Assembly: GCA_036405895.1 (NCBI GenBank)
Contig: DASWWS010000002.1
Span: 124,029 to 188,028, forward strand
Source: Minisyncoccota bacterium
GTDB lineage: Bacteria; Patescibacteriota; Minisyncoccia; Phycocordibacterales; UBA9973
Reading direction: 5' to 3'
Length of the DNA stretch: 64,000 bases
Of this stretch, positions 12,189-31,282 are shown piece by piece (the first letter of the stretch is position 1; each line of letters starts with the position of its first letter). Under the pieces are notes generated by a model. That model was not told the origin of the DNA and ran no database searches. It saw only the letters and a program-made list of their open reading frames with translations. The position numbers and the translations under genes are program-made.

Positions 12189-12455
12189 AGGCTTTATTAT
12201 ACATAAAAACGATAAAAACGCCTTTTAGGGGGTATCGACCTCCAGGTTACTAAATATTTTTCAGGGTATCGCCTCACAAATCACTAAGCATAATTCTTCG
12301 CTCCACTCGAATTCTGCCAAGTGTTCGCGAGCCCGGCTCGGTTCCGCCATAGGCGGATACCTGCGCCTTTTCGATACCCACGCAAGACAAGCAGTTGCCC
12401 TGTTCCATCTCCACCTAAAAAACAAAAAACGCCCAAGGGCGCTAATGTTGTTACA

Positions 12456-12841
12456 GGTGGAGATGGGGGTATCGAAACCCCGTGCAAATGATCACGAACA
12501 AGTACTTCTCCATGCGTAGTACGATTTAATTGTTAAGACAGAATCTCAAAACCGTACAAAACGATTCATGTCCGAGCCTCGATTGTTTCGGAGTACTGAC
12601 GAGACACGCAGTACTTCCTACGTTCGATGAATGTTGCCGCGACTACGTTATCGAACATCACGTAGAGCGACACCGGATTGACCTAAATTTAGGCGAATGC
12701 CGGAGCGAAGTTTCCAAAATATGGAGACTTCACTGATGCTGTGCTGTTGCCAGGTAAGCGTTCGGACGAATTTTACGAGATACGTCCATTCTCGGCATGC
12801 ATACAGGCCCGATACATCAAATGTCGAAACCTTTCATCCCC
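12456..12841 (-). ncRNA. ssrA: tmRNA (SsrA)
   Basis: 5' GGGGATGAAAGGTTTCGAC and 3' GGGGTTTCGATACCCCCATCTCCACC, with a G3-U70 acceptor. Internal tag frame 12751-12689 reads GNSTASVKSPYFGNFAPAFA-stop. Lies directly downstream of smpB. Confidence 0.9.
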
Positions 12842-21187: not shown

Positions 21188-21197
21188 GGTAGTGATA

Positions 21198-22208: not shown

Positions 22209-22748
22209 TTATGCAGTCTTCTTACCTGCCTTGCGACGAATCACTTCGTTATCGTAGCGGAAGCCCTTACCCTTATATGGTTCTGGCTTTTTCTTTGCGC
22301 GTACTGATGCAGCGAATTCTCCCACAACTTCCTTGTTAATACCAGTGATAGTGATGTTATTCTTCTCTGCTGTTACAGTGAGGCCTTCAGGAATTGCAAT
22401 CACAACAGGGTGAGAGAAACCGAGTGCAAGGTGAAGATCAGTGCCTTTGACTTCGCTCTTAAAACCAACCCCTTCGAGGATAAGCTTTTTCACATACGGT
22501 GTGTTTACTCCAGCAATCATGTTCTTCACGTGTGAAGCATGTGTTCCCCAAATAGCGCGAGCAAATGAATCAGTCCCCTTTTGTTCAAAGGTAACGAGCG
22601 CGTTTGCAGCATCGATGTTGATAGTTACCACTTCAGGAAGATTTTTTTCGAGTGTGCCAAGTGGCCCCTTCACGCGGAGAATGCCTCCTTCGTATGTAAC
22701 TTCAGTATTAGCTGGGATTACCAATTGTTGTTTTCCTACTCTGCTCAT
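22209..22748 (-). CDS. rplF: 50S ribosomal protein L6
   Basis: MSRVGKQQLVIP...PEPYKGKG. Start at ATG 22748. Confidence 0.95.
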   Translation of the reverse strand: MSRVGKQQLVIPANTEVTYEGGILRVKGPLGTLEKNLPEVVTINIDAANALVTFEQKGTDSFARAIWGTHASHVKNMIAGVNTPYVKKLILEGVGFKSEVKGTDLHLALGFSHPVVIAIPEGLTVTAEKNNITITGINKEVVGEFAASVRAKKKPEPYKGKGFRYDNEVIRRKAGKKTA

Positions 22749-22752
22749 ATAA

Positions 22753-23142
22753 TTACCAAATTTTGAATAACGCTTCTCCACCGACCAATTCTTTCTTTGC
22801 CTGCTTGTCGCTGAGGATTCCTTTCGGAGTTGAAAGGATGATAAGACCGTGGCCGTTTTTCACTGGGCGAAGGTCGCGAGTGCCCATGTATACGCGGCGA
22901 GAAGACTTTGAAATACGCGCAACATCCTGAATCTTTGCAACACCGTCTTTGTACAAGAGTCCGATTTCAATAACAGGAATATTGTTCTTTTCTGTCTTCT
23001 TTGAAACATCAGAAACAAAGCCGTGCTCCTTAAGGCACTGTGCGATTGCGTACTTAAGCGCTGAAAAAGGCACTACCACACGGTCTTTTGAAACCATGGA
23101 AGCGTTTTTCATTGTGATGATCATGTTTGAGATTGAATCCAT
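22753..23142 (-). CDS. rpsH: 30S ribosomal protein S8
   Basis: DSISNMIITMKNA...LSTPKGILSD. Confidence 0.95.
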   Translation of the reverse strand: MDSISNMIITMKNASMVSKDRVVVPFSALKYAIAQCLKEHGFVSDVSKKTEKNNIPVIEIGLLYKDGVAKIQDVARISKSSRRVYMGTRDLRPVKNGHGLIILSTPKGILSDKQAKKELVGGEALFKIW

Positions 23143-23155
23143 AAAAATAGTGAGA

Positions 23156-23341
23156 TTACCAAGAAGACTTGCGAATACCCGGAATCATGCCCTCGTTGGC
23201 AAGTTCGCGGAAACAAATACGGCATAGCCCGAAATCGCGCATGTAGCCATGACGACGACCACACTTGAAACAGCGGTTTACAATGCGGGTGCTAAATTTT
23301 GGCGTCTTTTTGGAACGCGCAATAACGGATGTCTTTGCCAT
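23156..23341 (-). CDS. rpsN: 30S ribosomal protein S14 type Z (zinc-binding)
   Basis: 61 aa with CxxC...CxxC ([20 protein letters not shown]). Start at ATG 23341. Confidence 0.93.
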
Positions 23342-23439
23342 ATTGATTGAACGTTCTGTGGAATATCGCGCGTTGCTTTCTTCTGTACTCAAAACTTGGG
23401 TAAAAAAGAGAGAAATGCGGATTACCAAAGAACTCGAGT

Positions 23440-23468
23440 ATCTTATCAAATGAAGCTTCTTTCGTCAA
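23440..23468 (-). promoter_or_regulatory. sigma70-type promoter for rpsN and downstream genes (TTGACG-17-TAAGAT)
   Basis: -35 at 23463-23468 and -10 at 23440-23445 (rc). Follows the terminator of the inserted gene and is about 95 nt upstream of rpsN. Confidence 0.55.
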
Positions 23469-23487
23469 CCCGACTTCCCTATTAATA

Positions 23488-23513
23488 ATAAAAGCCCCTT
23501 ATACAGGGGCTTT
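23488..23513 (-). terminator. intrinsic terminator overlapping the stop of the inserted gene
   Basis: AAAGCCCCT-GTATA-AGGGGCTTTTATTATT on the minus strand. Confidence 0.75.
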
Positions 23514-24050
23514 CGCTTCTTTTTGTAAGGCTATTTTCTGTGAAAAATGCTCATACACTTTTGAGTCCGCAAACAATGGATTTTTTACTATGAGCCATAA
23601 ATTATGGTCATACTCTGTCTCGACCAAAGCAATCACCTTCTCAACCATAGAGGGGGCGAGAAATGCGCCCCTTAAAACAAGAAAAGCATCTGGGGAAAGC
23701 TCTTTTGTTGAATAGCCATGCAATATGGTCAATCGATAGTCGTTTTCGGTTTGATCGATCCACGACTCGAGGTATGGCCCTAATAGCTTAGCAAAGTCAG
23801 AAATAAACCCTCCCGCTTCTTGATAGCATTCGAAAAGCTTGTTGATGTTTCTTAGGAAACCAAAACGCTCATCACTTTGAGGGTGAAGGGTTCCTATTCC
23901 ATATGAAAGAGTACTTTCAACATGAGTTCGTGTTGCCGCTTTTTTCTCTTTCAAAAGGGCTTCAGCATTATGATTCGATTTCAAGTAAAGAACCATTAAA
24001 GGGATTCCTGCGATGAAACCTCCTGTAAAGAAATAAATAATTCCATTCAT
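23499..24050 (-). CDS. hypothetical membrane-anchored protein inserted between rplE and rpsN
   Basis: One N-terminal TM helix and a soluble domain of about 150 aa with no motif I recognise. AT-rich. ATG at 24050 (TTG at 24059 is also possible). Confidence 0.65.
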   Translation of the reverse strand: MNGIIYFFTGGFIAGIPLMVLYLKSNHNAEALLKEKKAATRTHVESTLSYGIGTLHPQSDERFGFLRNINKLFECYQEAGGFISDFAKLLGPYLESWIDQTENDYRLTILHGYSTKELSPDAFLVLRGAFLAPSMVEKVIALVETEYDHNLWLIVKNPLFADSKVYEHFSQKIALQKEAKAPV

Positions 24051-24069
24051 AGTCTTCAATTTTTTCCTG

Positions 24070-24097
24070 ATACTACTCCCTTCCCCTTAAATGTCAA
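24070..24097 (-). promoter_or_regulatory. sigma70-type promoter (TTGACA-16-TAGTAT) for the inserted gene
   Basis: -35 at 24092-24097 and -10 at 24070-24075 (rc), with an AGGAAA Shine-Dalgarno sequence. The -35 overlaps the rplE terminator hairpin AAGACCGCCC/GGGCGGTCTT at about 24097-24122. Confidence 0.6.
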
Positions 24098-24131
24098 AGA
24101 CCGCCCTTGCGGGCGGTCTTTTAGTAAAAAA

Positions 24132-24680
24132 TTATTTCTCTACTTCTTTCTTGAATGGGATTCCAAGGTGTTCGAAGAATGCGAGGGCTTCAGCTTTGGT
24201 CTTTGCAGAAGACACAAGAGTGATAGCAAGACCGAAGACATCGCGGAGGTCTTCGTCGGAAGTTTCCGGGAAGATAGAATGCTCCTTGATGCCGATAGTC
24301 ATGTTCCCGATTGAGTCCACAACCTTGCGATCAATTCCGCGGAAGTCTTTTGTACGAGGAAGCGCAATGTGGATGAGCTTGTCGACAAAGTGGTTCATGC
24401 GAGCGCCGCGAAGCGTTACCGTGAGTCCTACAGGATCCCCTTCACGGATCTTGAAGCTTGCCACTGACATCTTTGCCACGCGAAGCGTAGGCTTTTGGCC
24501 GGTGATGCGCATAAGGCGGTCTGCCACAAGGTTATTTCGTTCGCGGTCCTTCTTCATTCCTGAACCGGTTCCGCTTGAAACTACCACCTTCATGAGCTTC
24601 GGTGCTGCCATCTTGTTCTTGTAGCCAAACGCGCTGAGCGCTTCAGGTACTTTTTCTTGTTGTGCTTTAGTGAGTTGCAT
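24132..24680 (-). CDS. rplE: 50S ribosomal protein L5
   Basis: NKMAAPKLMKVVVSSG...FRGI motifs. Confidence 0.95.
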   Translation of the reverse strand: MQLTKAQQEKVPEALSAFGYKNKMAAPKLMKVVVSSGTGSGMKKDRERNNLVADRLMRITGQKPTLRVAKMSVASFKIREGDPVGLTVTLRGARMNHFVDKLIHIALPRTKDFRGIDRKVVDSIGNMTIGIKEHSIFPETSDEDLRDVFGLAITLVSSAKTKAEALAFFEHLGIPFKKEVEK

Positions 24681-24684
24681 AAAA

Positions 24685-24993
24685 TTATTTTAGAGTCTTA
24701 CCGCTTTTCTTCTCAAATCGAACCTTTTTGCCGTCTTCAGTGCGTACACCGATGCGAGTACCGGTACCGGTCTTACTATCGATAAGCATAACATTTGATG
24801 CGTTGAATGCTACTTCAACTTCAACAATAGAGCCTTTCTCGGTCTTTGAACGAGCCTTGATGTGGCGCTTTGCCTTGTTTACACCGTCAACGATAACGCG
24901 ATTGGTTTCTTTGATAACACGCGCAACAGTCCCCTTCTGACCCTTGTTCTTGCCGGCTGTTACTATTACATTGTCTCCTTTTTTGATCTTCAT
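24685..24993 (-). CDS. rplX: 50S ribosomal protein L24
   Basis: KIKKGDNVIVTAGKNKGQKG (KOW motif). Confidence 0.95.
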   Translation of the reverse strand: MKIKKGDNVIVTAGKNKGQKGTVARVIKETNRVIVDGVNKAKRHIKARSKTEKGSIVEVEVAFNASNVMLIDSKTGTGTRIGVRTEDGKKVRFEKKSGKTLK

Positions 24994-25633: not shown

Positions 25634-25682
25634 ATTGCGTGTGTATAGTACTTATTTTTCAGTGTTTGGCAAGTTTGGGCGT

Positions 25683-27623: not shown

Positions 27624-28022
27624 TTACACCAAAAAGAGTAGTTTTGGAATGAAAATGATCGCTCCTATTGAGGCTGCACTGAGAACCGAGATAAGCACAG
27701 CGCCGGCTGCGACGTCTTTGGTATCTTTTGCGTACGGATGATACTCGGGGCTGGTGAGATCGATATCTATCTCAAAGGCGGTATTAATCGCTTCTGTTAC
27801 CAAAACAGCCGCCATCGCCAAAATAAGGATGCACCACTCCACCGGAGCGATGCGTAGCCATACCCCAAGAGCGGTTACAAGAGCTGCTGCGGCAATTTGG
27901 ATCCAAAAGTTGTGCTGGGTGCGCACAATGATGCGAAGTCCCCGTACGGCGTATTTAAAGCTTCGAGCGCGTGCGATAAGCGAGAACCGTTTCTTTTCCG
28001 AAATATGTTTTACAGCATTCAT
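27624..28022 (-). CDS. dgkA: diacylglycerol/undecaprenol kinase family (DgkA-like) membrane protein
   Basis: Three TM helices, FKYAVRGL...EAINTAFE motif. TGCTATACT-N6-ATG. Lies between rplB and rpsS. Confidence 0.8.
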   Translation of the reverse strand: MNAVKHISEKKRFSLIARARSFKYAVRGLRIIVRTQHNFWIQIAAAALVTALGVWLRIAPVEWCILILAMAAVLVTEAINTAFEIDIDLTSPEYHPYAKDTKDVAAGAVLISVLSAASIGAIIFIPKLLFLV

Positions 28023-30761: not shown

Positions 30762-30852
30762 ACTGTTCGTGCCCCTCCGCCCCTTATAAATGCGGGACTG
30801 GAGTTATTGGGTATTGGACCATTGCATATAGTAATACGTGCAAGTGGGTAGG

Positions 30853-30880
30853 ATTATACACGGCTTCAAAAAAAGTGCAA
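30853..30880 (-). promoter_or_regulatory. sigma70-type promoter (TTGCAC-16-TGTATAAT) with ~90 nt leader ahead of rplC
   Basis: -35 at 30875-30880 and -10 at 30853-30858 (rc). Lies directly after the rpsJ terminator. Confidence 0.6.
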
Positions 30881-30900
30881 CTTTTCTTATAAAACCTAAT

Positions 30901-30937
30901 GATGTAAACAAAAAGCCCCCTTTCGGGGGCTTTTTGT
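30901..30937 (-). terminator. strong intrinsic terminator after rpsJ
   Basis: GATGTAAACAAAAAGCCCCC-TTTC-GGGGGCTTTTTGTTTACATC, a long inverted repeat. Confidence 0.85.
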
Positions 30938-31282
30938 TTACATCATCTTAACGTCGATGTCGACACCAGAAGGCATGGATAGGTTCGTCAGAGATTCGAT
31001 TACCTTCGGAGAAGGGTTTTCGATATCGATGAGGCGCTTGTGAACGCGCATCTCGAACTGCTCGCGCGAGTTCTTGTAGATGAACGGAGAGCGGTTCACA
31101 GTGTACTTCTTGATTTCAGTCGGAAGCGGGATCGGACCGCGCACTACTGCGTCATAACGCACTGCAGTGTCGATGATCTGCTTGACTGAAGCGTCAAGAA
31201 TTTTGTTTTCGTAGGCGCGTACGCGAATGCGGAGCATGCTTTGTACGTCGTCTTTTTTAGGTTTTGCTGTTTTTGTTGCCAT
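30938..31282 (-). CDS. rpsJ: 30S ribosomal protein S10
   Basis: LRIRVRAYENKILD...PLPTEIKKYTVNRSP. Confidence 0.96.
   Translation of the reverse strand: MATKTAKPKKDDVQSMLRIRVRAYENKILDASVKQIIDTAVRYDAVVRGPIPLPTEIKKYTVNRSPFIYKNSREQFEMRVHKRLIDIENPSPKVIESLTNLSMPSGVDIDVKMM

What the first reader, a model, noticed from the sequence alone, without database searches (positions are those of the whole stretch)
23488..24122. Self-contained unknown gene (promoter, gene, terminator) splitting the spc operon between rplE and rpsN
rplE ends in a terminator hairpin that overlaps a TTGACA-16-TAGTAT promoter. An AT-rich 183-aa membrane-anchored protein with no recognisable motif follows. A terminator then overlaps its stop codon. 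A fresh TTGACG-17-TAAGAT promoter with a ~95-nt leader restarts rpsN-rpsH. Insertions at this position in one of the most conserved operons are rare. The leader may carry a new autoregulatory site.
Basis: partly seen in the sequence, partly recalled or inferred. Interest (0 to 1): 0.5.

Follow-up and report, generated by a model that had tools for sequence, protein, structure and literature searches.

The report
Orphan gene in ribosomal-operon cargo slot
A real but orphan membrane-protein gene sits in a gap of the ribosomal-protein gene cluster that, in this group of ultra-small bacteria, is a regular parking place for extra genes. Just after it lies a conserved RNA leader that looks like a self-regulation site for ribosomal protein S8.

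Summary
On the minus strand the order is rplE, a strong hairpin, TTGACA-16-TAGTAT, a 183-aa ORF, a terminator over its stop codon, TTGACG-17-TGATAAGAT, a ~92-nt leader, then rpsN-rpsH.

The interpretation needs correcting.
1. The gene did not split the operon. The closest relative (L5 99% identical) lacks the ORF. It still has the hairpin, the promoter and the leader.
2. Insertions here are the rule in this clade. Of 72 informative Paceibacteria species, 53 carry 0.3 to more than 4 kb of unrelated cargo between rplE and rpsN.
3. The ORF is a real gene. Its only homologue among 1.84 billion representatives (29% identity) sits in the same slot. That copy's non-coding flanks are about 82-93% identical, while the coding sequence evolves at about the neutral rate. 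The protein has an N-terminal membrane anchor plus an all-helical domain and matches no family or fold.
4. The leader is a conserved, covarying structured RNA, present in 48 sources and always just upstream of rpsN. Its internal loop has the topology and invariant bases of the S8 binding site of 16S helix 21. It is absent from Rfam. It is probably an S8 autoregulatory operator that arose independently of the E. coli one.

The parts
24132..24680 (-). rplE (uL5), the last gene of the upstream transcription unit
   Evidence: ORF list. Pfam Ribosomal_L5 and L5_C on the identical gene in L001.
24096..24121 (-). Hairpin after rplE (AAAGACCGCCC-GCAA-GGGCGGUCUUU). Probably a partial terminator, because its U-tract is short and runs into the -35 box.
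   Evidence: -21.5 kcal/mol, z -7.0. The orthologous hairpin is present in L007 and L087. My crude filter flagged 37 of 80 relatives as having a hairpin (at most -8 kcal/mol) plus a T-run just after rplE, and by eye more do. The terminator scan did not call this one.
24070..24097 (-). Promoter of the orphan gene: TTGACA-16-TAGTAT
   Evidence: 10/12 consensus match. Both hexamers and the spacer length are identical in L087, although the coding sequence has diverged.
23499..24050 (-). Orphan gene of 183 aa: N-terminal transmembrane helix (about residues 3-23) plus an all-alpha domain (residues 26-180)
   Evidence: - ORF list.
- One homologue, P0002: 29-30% identity, E 9.5e-9 over 1.84e9 proteins. 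It sits in the same slot in L087.
- AF2 pLDDT 72, with 4 of 5 models agreeing.
- No family or fold match.
- dN 0.77 against neighbours' dS 0.16-1.0.
23490..23514 (-). Intrinsic terminator of the orphan gene. The stop codon lies in the loop, and the last 4-5 codons are encoded by the 5' arm.
   Evidence: Called by the terminator scan. -16.7 kcal/mol, z -4.05. Conserved in L087, with TGA in the loop.
23440..23468 (-). rpsN promoter: TTGACG-17-TGATAAGAT (extended -10)
   Evidence: TGnTAnnAT lies directly upstream of the leader in 47 of 47 species. In 39 of them TTGAC lies a further 16-17 nt upstream.
23347..23438 (-). Structured rpsN leader.
- P1: 23433-23425 pairs with 23361-23353.
- S8-like loop: 5' UAAUC 23424-23420, 3' GAUAUU 23367-23362.
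- Invariant A at 23364.
- P2, an internal loop, P3 and a variable tip.
   Evidence: - CM R1 hit of 76 bits, the only hit in the window.
- 48 hits in 82 sources, always upstream of rpsN.
- Covariation.
- Each sequence folds to the same shape on its own.
- z -3.1.
- Core composition.
23156..23341 (-). rpsN (uS14, 61-aa Zn-ribbon type with CxxC...CxxC)
   Evidence: Translation. tblastn across relatives.
22753..23142 (-). rpsH (uS8), the proposed ligand of the leader, 14 nt downstream of rpsN
   Evidence: ORF list. Pfam Ribosomal_S8 on the identical gene in L001.

Best explanation
In this Paceibacteria lineage the spc cluster is cut into two transcription units between rplE and rpsN.

- rplE ends in a hairpin.
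- rpsN-rpsH and the genes after them restart from a conserved extended -10 promoter.
- The transcript of that promoter begins with an 85-110-nt hairpin-shaped leader.

- a U-A and a C-G closing pair;
- a 2-nt bulge holding an invariant A;
- two Watson-Crick pairs, one of which covaries;
- one unpaired 5' base.

Inferred step: surplus S8 binds this loop and locks the basal helix P1. The 3' strand of P1 carries the only Shine-Dalgarno-like tract and ends about 8-19 nt before the rpsN start codon. Binding would therefore repress translation of rpsN and of the genes coupled to it.

The rplE|rpsN gap lies between a terminator and a promoter, so genes can sit there without polar damage. It has become a cargo slot that different species fill with different accessory genes, mostly for membrane or secreted proteins.

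In this genome the slot holds one orphan gene with its own promoter and terminator. It encodes a membrane-tethered protein whose helical domain is probably cytoplasmic. Selection keeps the reading frame open. The amino-acid sequence changes at about the neutral rate, while the regulatory flanks are conserved.
For: Shown:
1. Anatomy.
2. L007 (L5 99% identical) lacks the ORF but keeps the hairpin, the promoter and the leader. Its promoter aligns as a hybrid of the window's two promoters.
3. Junction survey of 81 relatives: 19 compact (127-248 nt), 38 with 0.34-3.8 kb of cargo, 15 with no rpsN within 2.8-4 kb, 9 uninformative.
4. The cargo is heterogeneous: PG_binding_1 x14, pilin N_methyl x7, DUF2177 x6, Rce1-like x6, RuvB x3 and others.
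5. Leader search: 48 CM hits in 676 kb, all directly upstream of rpsN, and 9 of them outside the seed.
6. Leader pairing: 81.8% of cells paired, against 64% in shuffles (0 of 500 as high) and at most 49.7% in slid controls. The core helix is 97.8% paired, and 6 of its 8 pairs show double changes.
7. Core composition: A at the 642-equivalent in 47 of 47. The 596/644-equivalents are A-U in 38 distinct sequences and G-C in 8, never unpaired. The 598-640 and 599-639 equivalents are invariant.
8. The published S8 site matches this pattern: a 7-nt loop, invariant A642, a (597-643)-641 triple that tolerates isosteric changes, and a 596-644 pair that is A-U in E. coli and C-G in Thermus (PMC4176348).
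9. The extended -10 is present in 47 of 47.
10. P1 ends 8-19 nt before the ATG in 36 of 47.
11. The gene is real: one homologue, in the same slot, with conserved UTR, terminator and promoter and a consistent AF2 model.
Against: - There are no expression data and no binding data.
- The leader has A-U at the 597-643 equivalent. E. coli helix 21 and helix 21 of a Paceibacteria lineage (32-520) both have G-C there.
- Three leaders have A opposite C at that position.
- The 595-equivalent base is not conserved.
- The leader has an extra 1-nt bulge next to the core.
- The leader CM does not find helix 21 in Paceibacteria 16S genes.
- In 8 of 47 species the leader lies 61-145 nt from the ATG, so simple start-site occlusion cannot be universal.
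- The window's own P1 3' strand (CCACAGAAC) is a poor Shine-Dalgarno sequence.
- The rplE hairpin has a weak U-tract, so read-through into the ORF is likely.
- The function of the orphan protein is not established. Its topology rests only on the positive-inside rule.
- The evolutionary-rate argument rests on one pair of sequences.
Confidence: 0.6

Rival explanations
1. One reading: a rare, one-off insertion of a self-contained gene broke an otherwise continuous spc operon. The promoter and leader in front of rpsN arose to compensate for that break.
For: The gene is flanked by its own promoter and terminator, and a second promoter follows. The spc order is continuous in model bacteria (PMC3616713).
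Against: L007 lacks the gene but has the hairpin, the promoter and the leader. The promoter and leader are conserved in 47 species with many different upstream contents, including 13 compact junctions. 53 of 72 informative species have the junction occupied or broken.
Confidence: 0.04
2. The leader is a real conserved RNA structure, but its ligand is not S8. It could bind another protein of the downstream unit (uS14, uL6, uL18, uS5 or uL15). It could also be only a 5' stabilising or processing hairpin.
For: - The 597-643 equivalent is A-U, not G-C.
- The 595-equivalent is variable.
- There is an extra bulge.
- The CM does not detect helix 21.
- The strongly conserved UUUCUC / GAGAAA internal loop and P3 have no counterpart in the S8 site.
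- 8 leaders lie far from the start codon.
Against: The loop topology and 8 of 10 core positions match E. coli helix 21, including the invariant A and a covarying 596-644 pair (PMC4176348). S8 is encoded second in this transcript. It is the only protein of this gene set known to autoregulate spc mRNA (PMC10931766).
Confidence: 0.3
3. The 183-codon ORF is a spurious open frame in an AT-rich spacer, not a gene.
For: It has no family, domain or fold match. Its GC content is low. It has no clear Shine-Dalgarno sequence. It is absent from the closest relative.
Against: - A full-length homologue lies in the same slot, with the same start context and the stop inside the terminator loop.
- By my own estimate from base composition (inference, not a tool result), a 183-codon open frame at this GC content has a chance of about 7e-6.
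- By the same kind of estimate, neutral drift at the observed divergence should have introduced several stop codons in each lineage.
- The hydrophobic N-terminus is conserved.
- Four of five AF2 models agree at pLDDT about 70 from only two sequences.
- The promoter and terminator frame the ORF exactly and are conserved.
Confidence: 0.04
4. The extreme divergence of the orphan coding sequence reflects cassette replacement. An old, distant allele would have been swapped in by recombination in the conserved flanks, as at loci under frequency-dependent selection. The alternative is fast evolution in place.
For: Identity drops abruptly from 86% to about 40-60% at the start codon and recovers to 82-93% at the terminator. 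The ORF's own synonymous sites look saturated (pS 0.78), against 0.15-0.56 in the neighbours. The slot turns over between species.
Against: A dN of 0.77 and 29% identity are about what dN/dS near 1 would give at the neighbours' dS of 0.5-1.0 (my calculation). Evolution in place therefore suffices. The apparent saturation at synonymous sites may be an alignment artefact at 29% identity. Only two alleles are known.
Confidence: 0.3

Closest known systems
E. coli S8 operator on spc mRNA (translational feedback at the rplE start)
   Same: An RNA helix within the spc gene set whose internal loop mimics 16S helix 21. Extra bulged bases lie next to the core, and S8 is encoded on the regulated transcript (PMC3616713; PMC4176348; PMC10931766).
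   Different: - Location: the 5'UTR of rpsN behind a dedicated promoter, not overlapping the rplE start codon.
- rplE and the genes upstream of it lie outside the regulated unit.
- There is no sequence or CM similarity (no Rfam hit).
- The 597-643 equivalent is A-U.
- The phylum is different. The E. coli element is confined to Gammaproteobacteria, so this would be an independent origin.
S8 binding site of 16S rRNA helix 21
   Same: The 3+4-nt asymmetric loop topology is the same. U598-A640, C599-G639, A596-U644, U641 and the invariant A642 are identical to E. coli. The 596-644 pair covaries A-U to G-C, as it differs between E. coli and Thermus (PMC4176348).
   Different: - G597-C643 is replaced by A-U.
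- The 595-equivalent is not conserved.
- A 1-nt bulge lies distal to the core.
- Helix 21 of a Paceibacteria lineage reads AAGUU/AAAACU, so the mimicry is structural and not literal.
Ribosomal-protein leaders in general (for example the 20 candidates of Eckert and Weinberg 2020)
   Same: A conserved structured 5'UTR in front of r-protein genes, supported by covariation and by fixed genomic context.
   Different: That paper does not mention rpsN, rpsH or Patescibacteria. This leader is not in Rfam 15.
Variable gene islets between conserved core genes (integration or replacement hotspots)
   Same: The core flanks are fixed (rplE and rpsN). The content differs from species to species. The cargo is enriched in envelope and secreted proteins and has lower GC than its surroundings.
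   Different: The slot lies inside the ribosomal-protein super-operon. No integrase, transposase or terminal repeat was seen. The slot is bounded by a terminator and a promoter, and the same TTGAC box follows the rplE hairpin whether or not cargo is present.

Membership tests
S8-binding RNA site (helix 21 type) | A helix interrupted by an asymmetric internal loop of 7 nt (3 on the 5' side, 4 on the 3' side) | tested here: met
   5' N-A-A and 3' U-A-U-U lie between P1 and the U-A/C-G pairs in all 47 full-length leaders. The definition is from PMC4176348.
S8-binding RNA site (helix 21 type) | An invariant adenine at position 642, bulged and preceded by nucleotide 641 | tested here: met
   A4 column 118 is A in 47 of 47. 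Column 117 is U in 43, C in 3 and A in 1.
S8-binding RNA site (helix 21 type) | A Watson-Crick 596-644 pair (part of the 595 triple) | tested here: met
   Columns 18-120 are A-U in 38 distinct sequences and G-C in 8, with none unpaired. The third base of the triple (595-equivalent) is variable: U28, A11, C5, G1.
S8-binding RNA site (helix 21 type) | A (597-643)-641 triple: G-C with U, or an isosteric combination | tested here: inconclusive
   A-U with U641 in 42 sequences, G-C with A641 in 1, and A opposite C with C641 in 3. Whether (A-U)-U is an accepted isostere could not be checked, because the SELEX papers are not held.
S8-binding RNA site (helix 21 type) | Specific binding of S8 | not testable with these tools
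   This needs EMSA or filter binding. The window's S8 keeps the S-T motif as LSTPKG. In E. coli and Bacillus the motif is S-T-S (PMC4176348).
E. coli-type spc operator (S8 leader of Gammaproteobacteria) | Overlaps the rplE translation start | tested here: not met
   The element lies in the rpsN 5'UTR, about 790 nt downstream of rplE.
E. coli-type spc operator (S8 leader of Gammaproteobacteria) | Detectable sequence or structure homology to any curated RNA family | tested here: not met
   cmscan of 22600-24800 at E up to 10 gave only terminator-like noise. The gathering-threshold scan of the window found only tmRNA and tRNAs.
Intrinsic (rho-independent) terminator | A GC-rich hairpin followed directly by a U-tract | tested here: met
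   The ORF terminator 23514-23490 has 10 pairs and is followed by UUUUAUUAUU. The rplE hairpin has only UUU before GACA and the scan did not call it, so it is inconclusive.
Sigma-70 promoter with extended -10 | TTGACA-like box, 16-18 nt spacer, TGnTATAAT-like box, conserved in position | tested here: met
   rpsN promoter: 47 of 47 have TGnTAnnAT 1-13 nt before the leader, and 39 of 47 also have TTGAC. ORF promoter: 10/12 match and identical in L087. Transcription starts were not tested.
Any curated protein family for the orphan ORF (Pfam, NCBIfam, PHROGs, PADLOC, PDB) | A significant profile or fold match | tested here: not met
   - No hits at E up to 10 (Pfam, NCBIfam) or E up to 1 (PADLOC).
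- One PHROG hit at E 0.16, to the homologue only.
- Best PDB sequence match E 0.13.
- Foldseek E at least 0.23.
Mobile element or integron-like cassette | An integrase or transposase nearby, terminal inverted repeats or target-site duplication | tested here: not met
   No flanking repeats beyond short chance matches. No integrase or transposase family appears in the top-25 family list for 108 cargo ORFs. No tRNA lies at the junction.

The most novel reading that the evidence does not exclude
Paceibacteria evolved their own S8-responsive operator, independently of the gammaproteobacterial one. It sits at a new place (the rpsN 5'UTR) and is coupled to a dedicated promoter. The resulting terminator/promoter seam inside the ribosomal super-operon works as a standing expression slot. 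In that slot, accessory envelope genes are swapped or evolve at neutral speed while using conserved, ribosome-linked regulatory flanks. These genes include hyper-divergent orphan membrane proteins like this one. Cargo may even be gained and lost by recombination between the two copies of the promoter.
Probability: 0.4. Interest if true: 0.75.

Novelty: new variant of a known kind. Interest (0 to 1): 0.58.

Why it matters

A covarying leader with an S8-site-like loop, in 47 species of an uncultivated phylum, gives a concrete candidate. It can be tested with one recombinant protein and one ~90-nt RNA. If confirmed, it would be a second, independent invention of S8 mimicry.

The survey also shows that one of the most conserved gene orders in bacteria has a tolerated break in Paceibacteria, and that accessory genes accumulate there. 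This matters for:
- using ribosomal-protein synteny in binning and phylogenomics of CPR genomes;
- annotation, since rpsN is skipped and antisense ORFs are called over the leader in public assemblies;
- finding lineage-specific envelope proteins of episymbionts.

The orphan gene itself is of modest interest until more alleles or expression data exist.

Tried and rejected
- Family searches for the ORF in Pfam, NCBIfam, PADLOC and PHROGs found nothing.
- A word-seeded search of 5.8e9 proteins found only the protein itself with the single sequence. With a two-sequence profile it found only the two known members.
- The PDB sequence profile gave nothing below E 0.13.
- Foldseek against PDB and BFVD was not significant.
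- The afdb50 library was unavailable.
- jackhmmer and hhalign between the orphan family and the other TM-anchored ~200-aa cargo proteins of the same slot showed no relation. The hhalign probability was at most 1%.
- Rfam had no family for the leader.
- The leader CM was run with filters off on 13 Paceibacteria 16S loci to see whether it detects helix 21. It does not, and the best hit (E 0.81) lies outside helix 21.
- A search for terminal repeats or target-site duplications around the cassette found only chance-level matches.
- The MAFFT and RNAalifold consensus missed P3, because two subgroups are shifted by one column. P3 support therefore stays weaker, at 75% paired.
- Merianos 2004 and Wu 1994 could not be read because they are not held.
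- The own 16S of this MAG is not in the window. A FISH-probe sequence from PMC9763046 was used to fetch 16S genes of another Paceibacteria lineage instead.
Full report
**1. What is in the sequence**

The ribosomal-protein cluster runs on the minus strand. In order:
- rplE, 24132-24680.
- A perfect 11-bp hairpin, 24121-24096 (-21.5 kcal/mol, z -7.0). Its U-tract is only UUU before it runs into TTGACA.
- TTGACA-16-TAGTAT, 24097-24070.
- A 183-codon ORF, ATG 24050 to TAA 23499.
- A canonical terminator, 23514-23490, with the stop codon in its loop.
- TTGACG-17-TGATAAGAT, 23468-23440.
- A ~92-nt untranslated leader.
- rpsN, 23341-23156 (61 aa, Zn-ribbon type).
- rpsH, 23142-22753.

Promoter-like hexamers as a class are not enriched over shuffled sequence (17 found against 16.1 expected). 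I therefore judged them by conservation.

**2. The ORF is a real but orphan gene**

- Pfam, NCBIfam and PADLOC give nothing. PHROGs gives only one E 0.16 hit, to the homologue P0002.
- A word-seeded search of 5.8 billion proteins finds only the protein itself. NCBI calls it a hypothetical protein of a Candidatus Paceibacterota MAG. It occurs on 10 contigs from one run series, and all 6 places examined have 100% identical protein.
- An exhaustive phmmer over 1.84 billion representatives finds one more protein, P0002 (193 aa, 29-30% identity, E 9.5e-9). A profile of the two finds no third member.
- P0002 is encoded in exactly the same place, rplE | X | rpsN-rpsH, in another MAG (L087).
- In L087 the hairpin, both ORF-promoter hexamers, the short 5'UTR, the terminator (with TGA in its loop), the rpsN promoter and the leader are all present and about 82-93% identical to the window. 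Identity inside the coding sequence falls to about 40-60%.
- Nei-Gojobori estimates: neighbours have dS 0.16-1.0 and dN 0.015-0.054. The ORF has dN 0.77, and its synonymous sites look saturated.
- My reading (inference): amino-acid sites change at about the neutral rate, yet both frames stay open at similar length, and the hydrophobic N-terminus is conserved. So the ORF is maintained by selection with very little sequence constraint, or under diversifying selection. Replacement by an older allele cannot be excluded with only two sequences.
- AlphaFold with the two-sequence alignment gives pLDDT 72, with four of five models agreeing. It predicts an all-helical domain over residues 26-180 behind a hydrophobic N-terminal segment.
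- Basic residues follow the hydrophobic segment in both homologues and none precede it in the window protein. By the positive-inside rule the helical domain is probably cytoplasmic (inference).
- GC content is 39.9% against 46.8% for the window.

**3. The gene did not split the operon, and the position is a hotspot**

I fetched the rplE neighbourhood from 80 species-level genomes (L5 58-99% identical) and added L087 from the homologue look-up.

The nearest relative, L007 (L5 99%, flanking DNA about 95% identical), has no ORF. Its 200-nt rplE-rpsN spacer still contains the orthologous hairpin, a TTGACT-17-TGCTAAGAT promoter and the leader. In the alignment, L007's -35 matches the window's ORF-promoter -35, and its -10 matches the window's rpsN-promoter -10. 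This fits a deletion between the two promoter copies, or the reverse duplication (inference).

Across the 81 loci:

| Junction state | Loci |
|---|---|
| Compact, 127-248 nt | 19 |
| 344-406 nt | 2 |
| 0.5-1.4 kb (one gene) | 17 |
| 1.4-3.8 kb (several genes) | 19 |
| No rpsN within 2.8-4 kb | 15 |
| Contig ends too early | 9 |

The cargo is heterogeneous and mostly membrane or secreted:
- 450-aa secreted proteins with PG_binding_1 (14);
- pilin-like N_methyl proteins (7);
- DUF2177 (6);
- Rce1-like proteases (6);
- RuvB (3), a desaturase, MsrA, a PLD-domain protein, and many orphans with an N-terminal TM helix.

None of these is detectably related to the window's ORF. I found no integrase or transposase family in the top-25 list and no terminal repeats.

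A strong hairpin right after rplE is common in the relatives. My crude filter flagged 37 of 80, and by eye more qualify. It is often followed at once by TTGAC, with or without cargo.

**4. The rpsN promoter and leader are conserved, and the leader is a structured RNA**

- Upstream of rpsN, sequences from about 40 species align to a common pattern.
- Each sequence folds on its own into the same long hairpin. From base to tip: basal helix P1; an asymmetric loop; AUC/GAU; a 1-nt 3' bulge; helix P2; a conserved UUUCUC / GAGAAA internal loop; helix P3; a variable tip.
- RNAalifold recovers P1 and P2, with compensatory changes in 10 of 12 pairs.
- A covariance model (R1, 89 positions, 22 pairs) was searched over the window plus 81 loci (676 kb, both strands). 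It gives 48 hits at E up to 0.01. There is never more than one per source, every hit lies directly upstream of rpsN, and 9 were not in the seed. The window has a single hit, 23438-23347, at 76 bits.
- On the model-based alignment, 81.8% of cells pair. Shuffles give 64% (0 of 500 as high) and slid controls at most 49.7%. The covariation score is 0.49, against at most 0.19 in the slid controls.
- The core helix is 97.8% paired, and 6 of its 8 pairs show double changes. That alignment is fitted to the model. The independent MAFFT and single-sequence results agree for P1 and P2. P3 is less secure, at 75% paired.
- All 47 leaders are preceded within 1-13 nt by TGnTAnnAT. 39 also have TTGAC a further 16-17 nt upstream. 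So the transcript should start at the foot of P1.
- In 36 of 47, P1 ends 8-19 nt before the ATG. The only purine-rich, Shine-Dalgarno-like tract lies in the P1 3' strand. In 8, the spacer is 61-145 nt.

**5. Resemblance to the S8 site**

The published site has these features (PMC4176348):
- a helix with an internal loop of seven conserved nucleotides;
- a triple (G597-C643)-U641 that tolerates isosteric replacements;
- an invariant A642;
- a triple A595-(A596-U644), which is G595-(C596-G644) in Thermus.

E. coli helix 21 reads 5' UAAGUC / GAUACU 3'. I verified this fragment as 100% identical to 16S rRNA in all 5,426 E. coli genomes.

Leader core, 5' N-A-A-U-C / G-A-U-A-U-U 3' (whole alignment):

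| Position (E. coli numbering) | Leader composition |
|---|---|
| 598-640 | U 48 / A 47 |
| 599-639 | C 48 / G 47 |
| 642 | A in 47 of 47 |
| 641 | U 43, C 3, A 1 |
| 596-644 | A 40, G 8 / U 39, C 8 (perfect covariation) |
| 597-643 | A 47, G 1 / U 43, C 4 |
| 595 | variable |

The topology is the same as in helix 21: one unpaired 5' base and a 2-nt 3' bulge holding the invariant A. Eight of ten core positions equal E. coli.

Differences:
- A-U instead of G-C at 597-643.
- Three A-opposite-C cases, in which 641 also changes to C.
- No conserved 595.
- An extra 1-nt bulge. The E. coli mRNA site also carries extra bulged bases, which lower its affinity (PMC3616713).

16S genes of another Paceibacteria lineage were fetched with a published FISH probe. 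Their helix 21 reads UAAGUU / AAAACU, which is canonical with G597-C643. The leader is therefore a structural mimic and not a copy. The leader CM does not pick up helix 21.

S8 is the second gene of the transcript. It is the only protein of this set known to repress spc mRNA. I put S8 as the ligand at about 0.55-0.6.

**6. Comparison with what is known**

- The E. coli operator overlaps the rplE start and is confined to Gammaproteobacteria (PMC3616713).
- Regulation of spc elsewhere is described as unknown (PMC10931766).
- Rfam 15 has no matching family.
- The paper describing 20 r-leader candidates does not mention rpsN, rpsH or Patescibacteria.
- A full-text search turned up no listed paper that links r-leaders with Patescibacteria.
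- The leader is therefore best filed as a new variant of a known kind: an rRNA-mimic r-protein leader that is not a member of the E. coli family.
- The orphan gene belongs to no known family.

**7. Verdict**

- Observation: confirmed.
- Interpretation: partly right.
- The orphan gene is real but, on its own, ordinary accessory cargo.
- The more valuable results are the ancestral break of the spc cluster in this clade, its use as a cargo slot in about three quarters of species, and the conserved candidate S8 operator.
- All functional steps (termination, promoter use, S8 binding, repression, protein topology) are inferred and not shown.

Noticed in passing
window 27624-28022 (-); also L001, L002, L004 and L087: A diacylglycerol-kinase-family gene (Pfam DAGK_prokar, 132 aa) sits between rplB and rpsS. 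It is a second non-ribosomal membrane-protein gene inside the S10/spc cluster, and it is conserved in the L087 relative.
   Followed up: partly
window 25634-25682 and 21188-21197: There is no rpmC (L29) ORF between rplP and rpsQ (49-nt gap). There is no rpmD (L30) between rpsE and rplO. Both genes are missing from their usual places.
   Followed up: no
window 30762-30944 (-): A very strong 20-bp hairpin (30944-30901) lies at the end of rpsJ. About 140 nt of untranslated sequence follow before rplC. This may be another terminator or leader break in the cluster.
   Followed up: no
L005 3030-3200 (-), L087 6883-7083 (-), L001 4850-5205: Gene callers in public assemblies skip the 61-aa rpsN. Instead they call spurious antisense ORFs across the rpsN leader.
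   Followed up: partly
L087 6689-6788: A run of N has the first ~60 nt of the leader repeated on both sides. It looks like a scaffolding artefact in that MAG, not biology.
   Followed up: no
L007 4560-4640 compared with window 24125-24070 and 23470-23440: The single promoter of the cargo-free relative aligns as a hybrid. Its -35 matches the window's ORF promoter and its -10 matches the window's rpsN promoter. This suggests cargo loss or gain by recombination between the two promoter copies.
   Followed up: partly
L041, L046, L058, L059, L061, L066, L070, L084 (leader to rpsN ATG): In eight species the leader lies 61-145 nt from the start codon instead of 8-21 nt. What fills this spacer was not examined.
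   Followed up: no
L018, L023, L029 (leader core): These three leaders read GACACU instead of GAUAUU. The 641- and 643-equivalent bases change together (U to C), as expected if they take part in one base triple. They may share a single ancestor.
   Followed up: no
window 12455-12841 (-): A tmRNA gene (Rfam, 108.7 bits). ARAGORN did not report it.
   Followed up: no
L020 4619-5245, L026 5340-6017, L030 4946-5614, L031 5271-6008, L024 1663-2238: A second family of ~200-aa proteins with an N-terminal TM anchor occupies the same slot in other species. It is not detectably related to the window's ORF. hhalign links the four-member family and L024 at 65% probability.
   Followed up: partly
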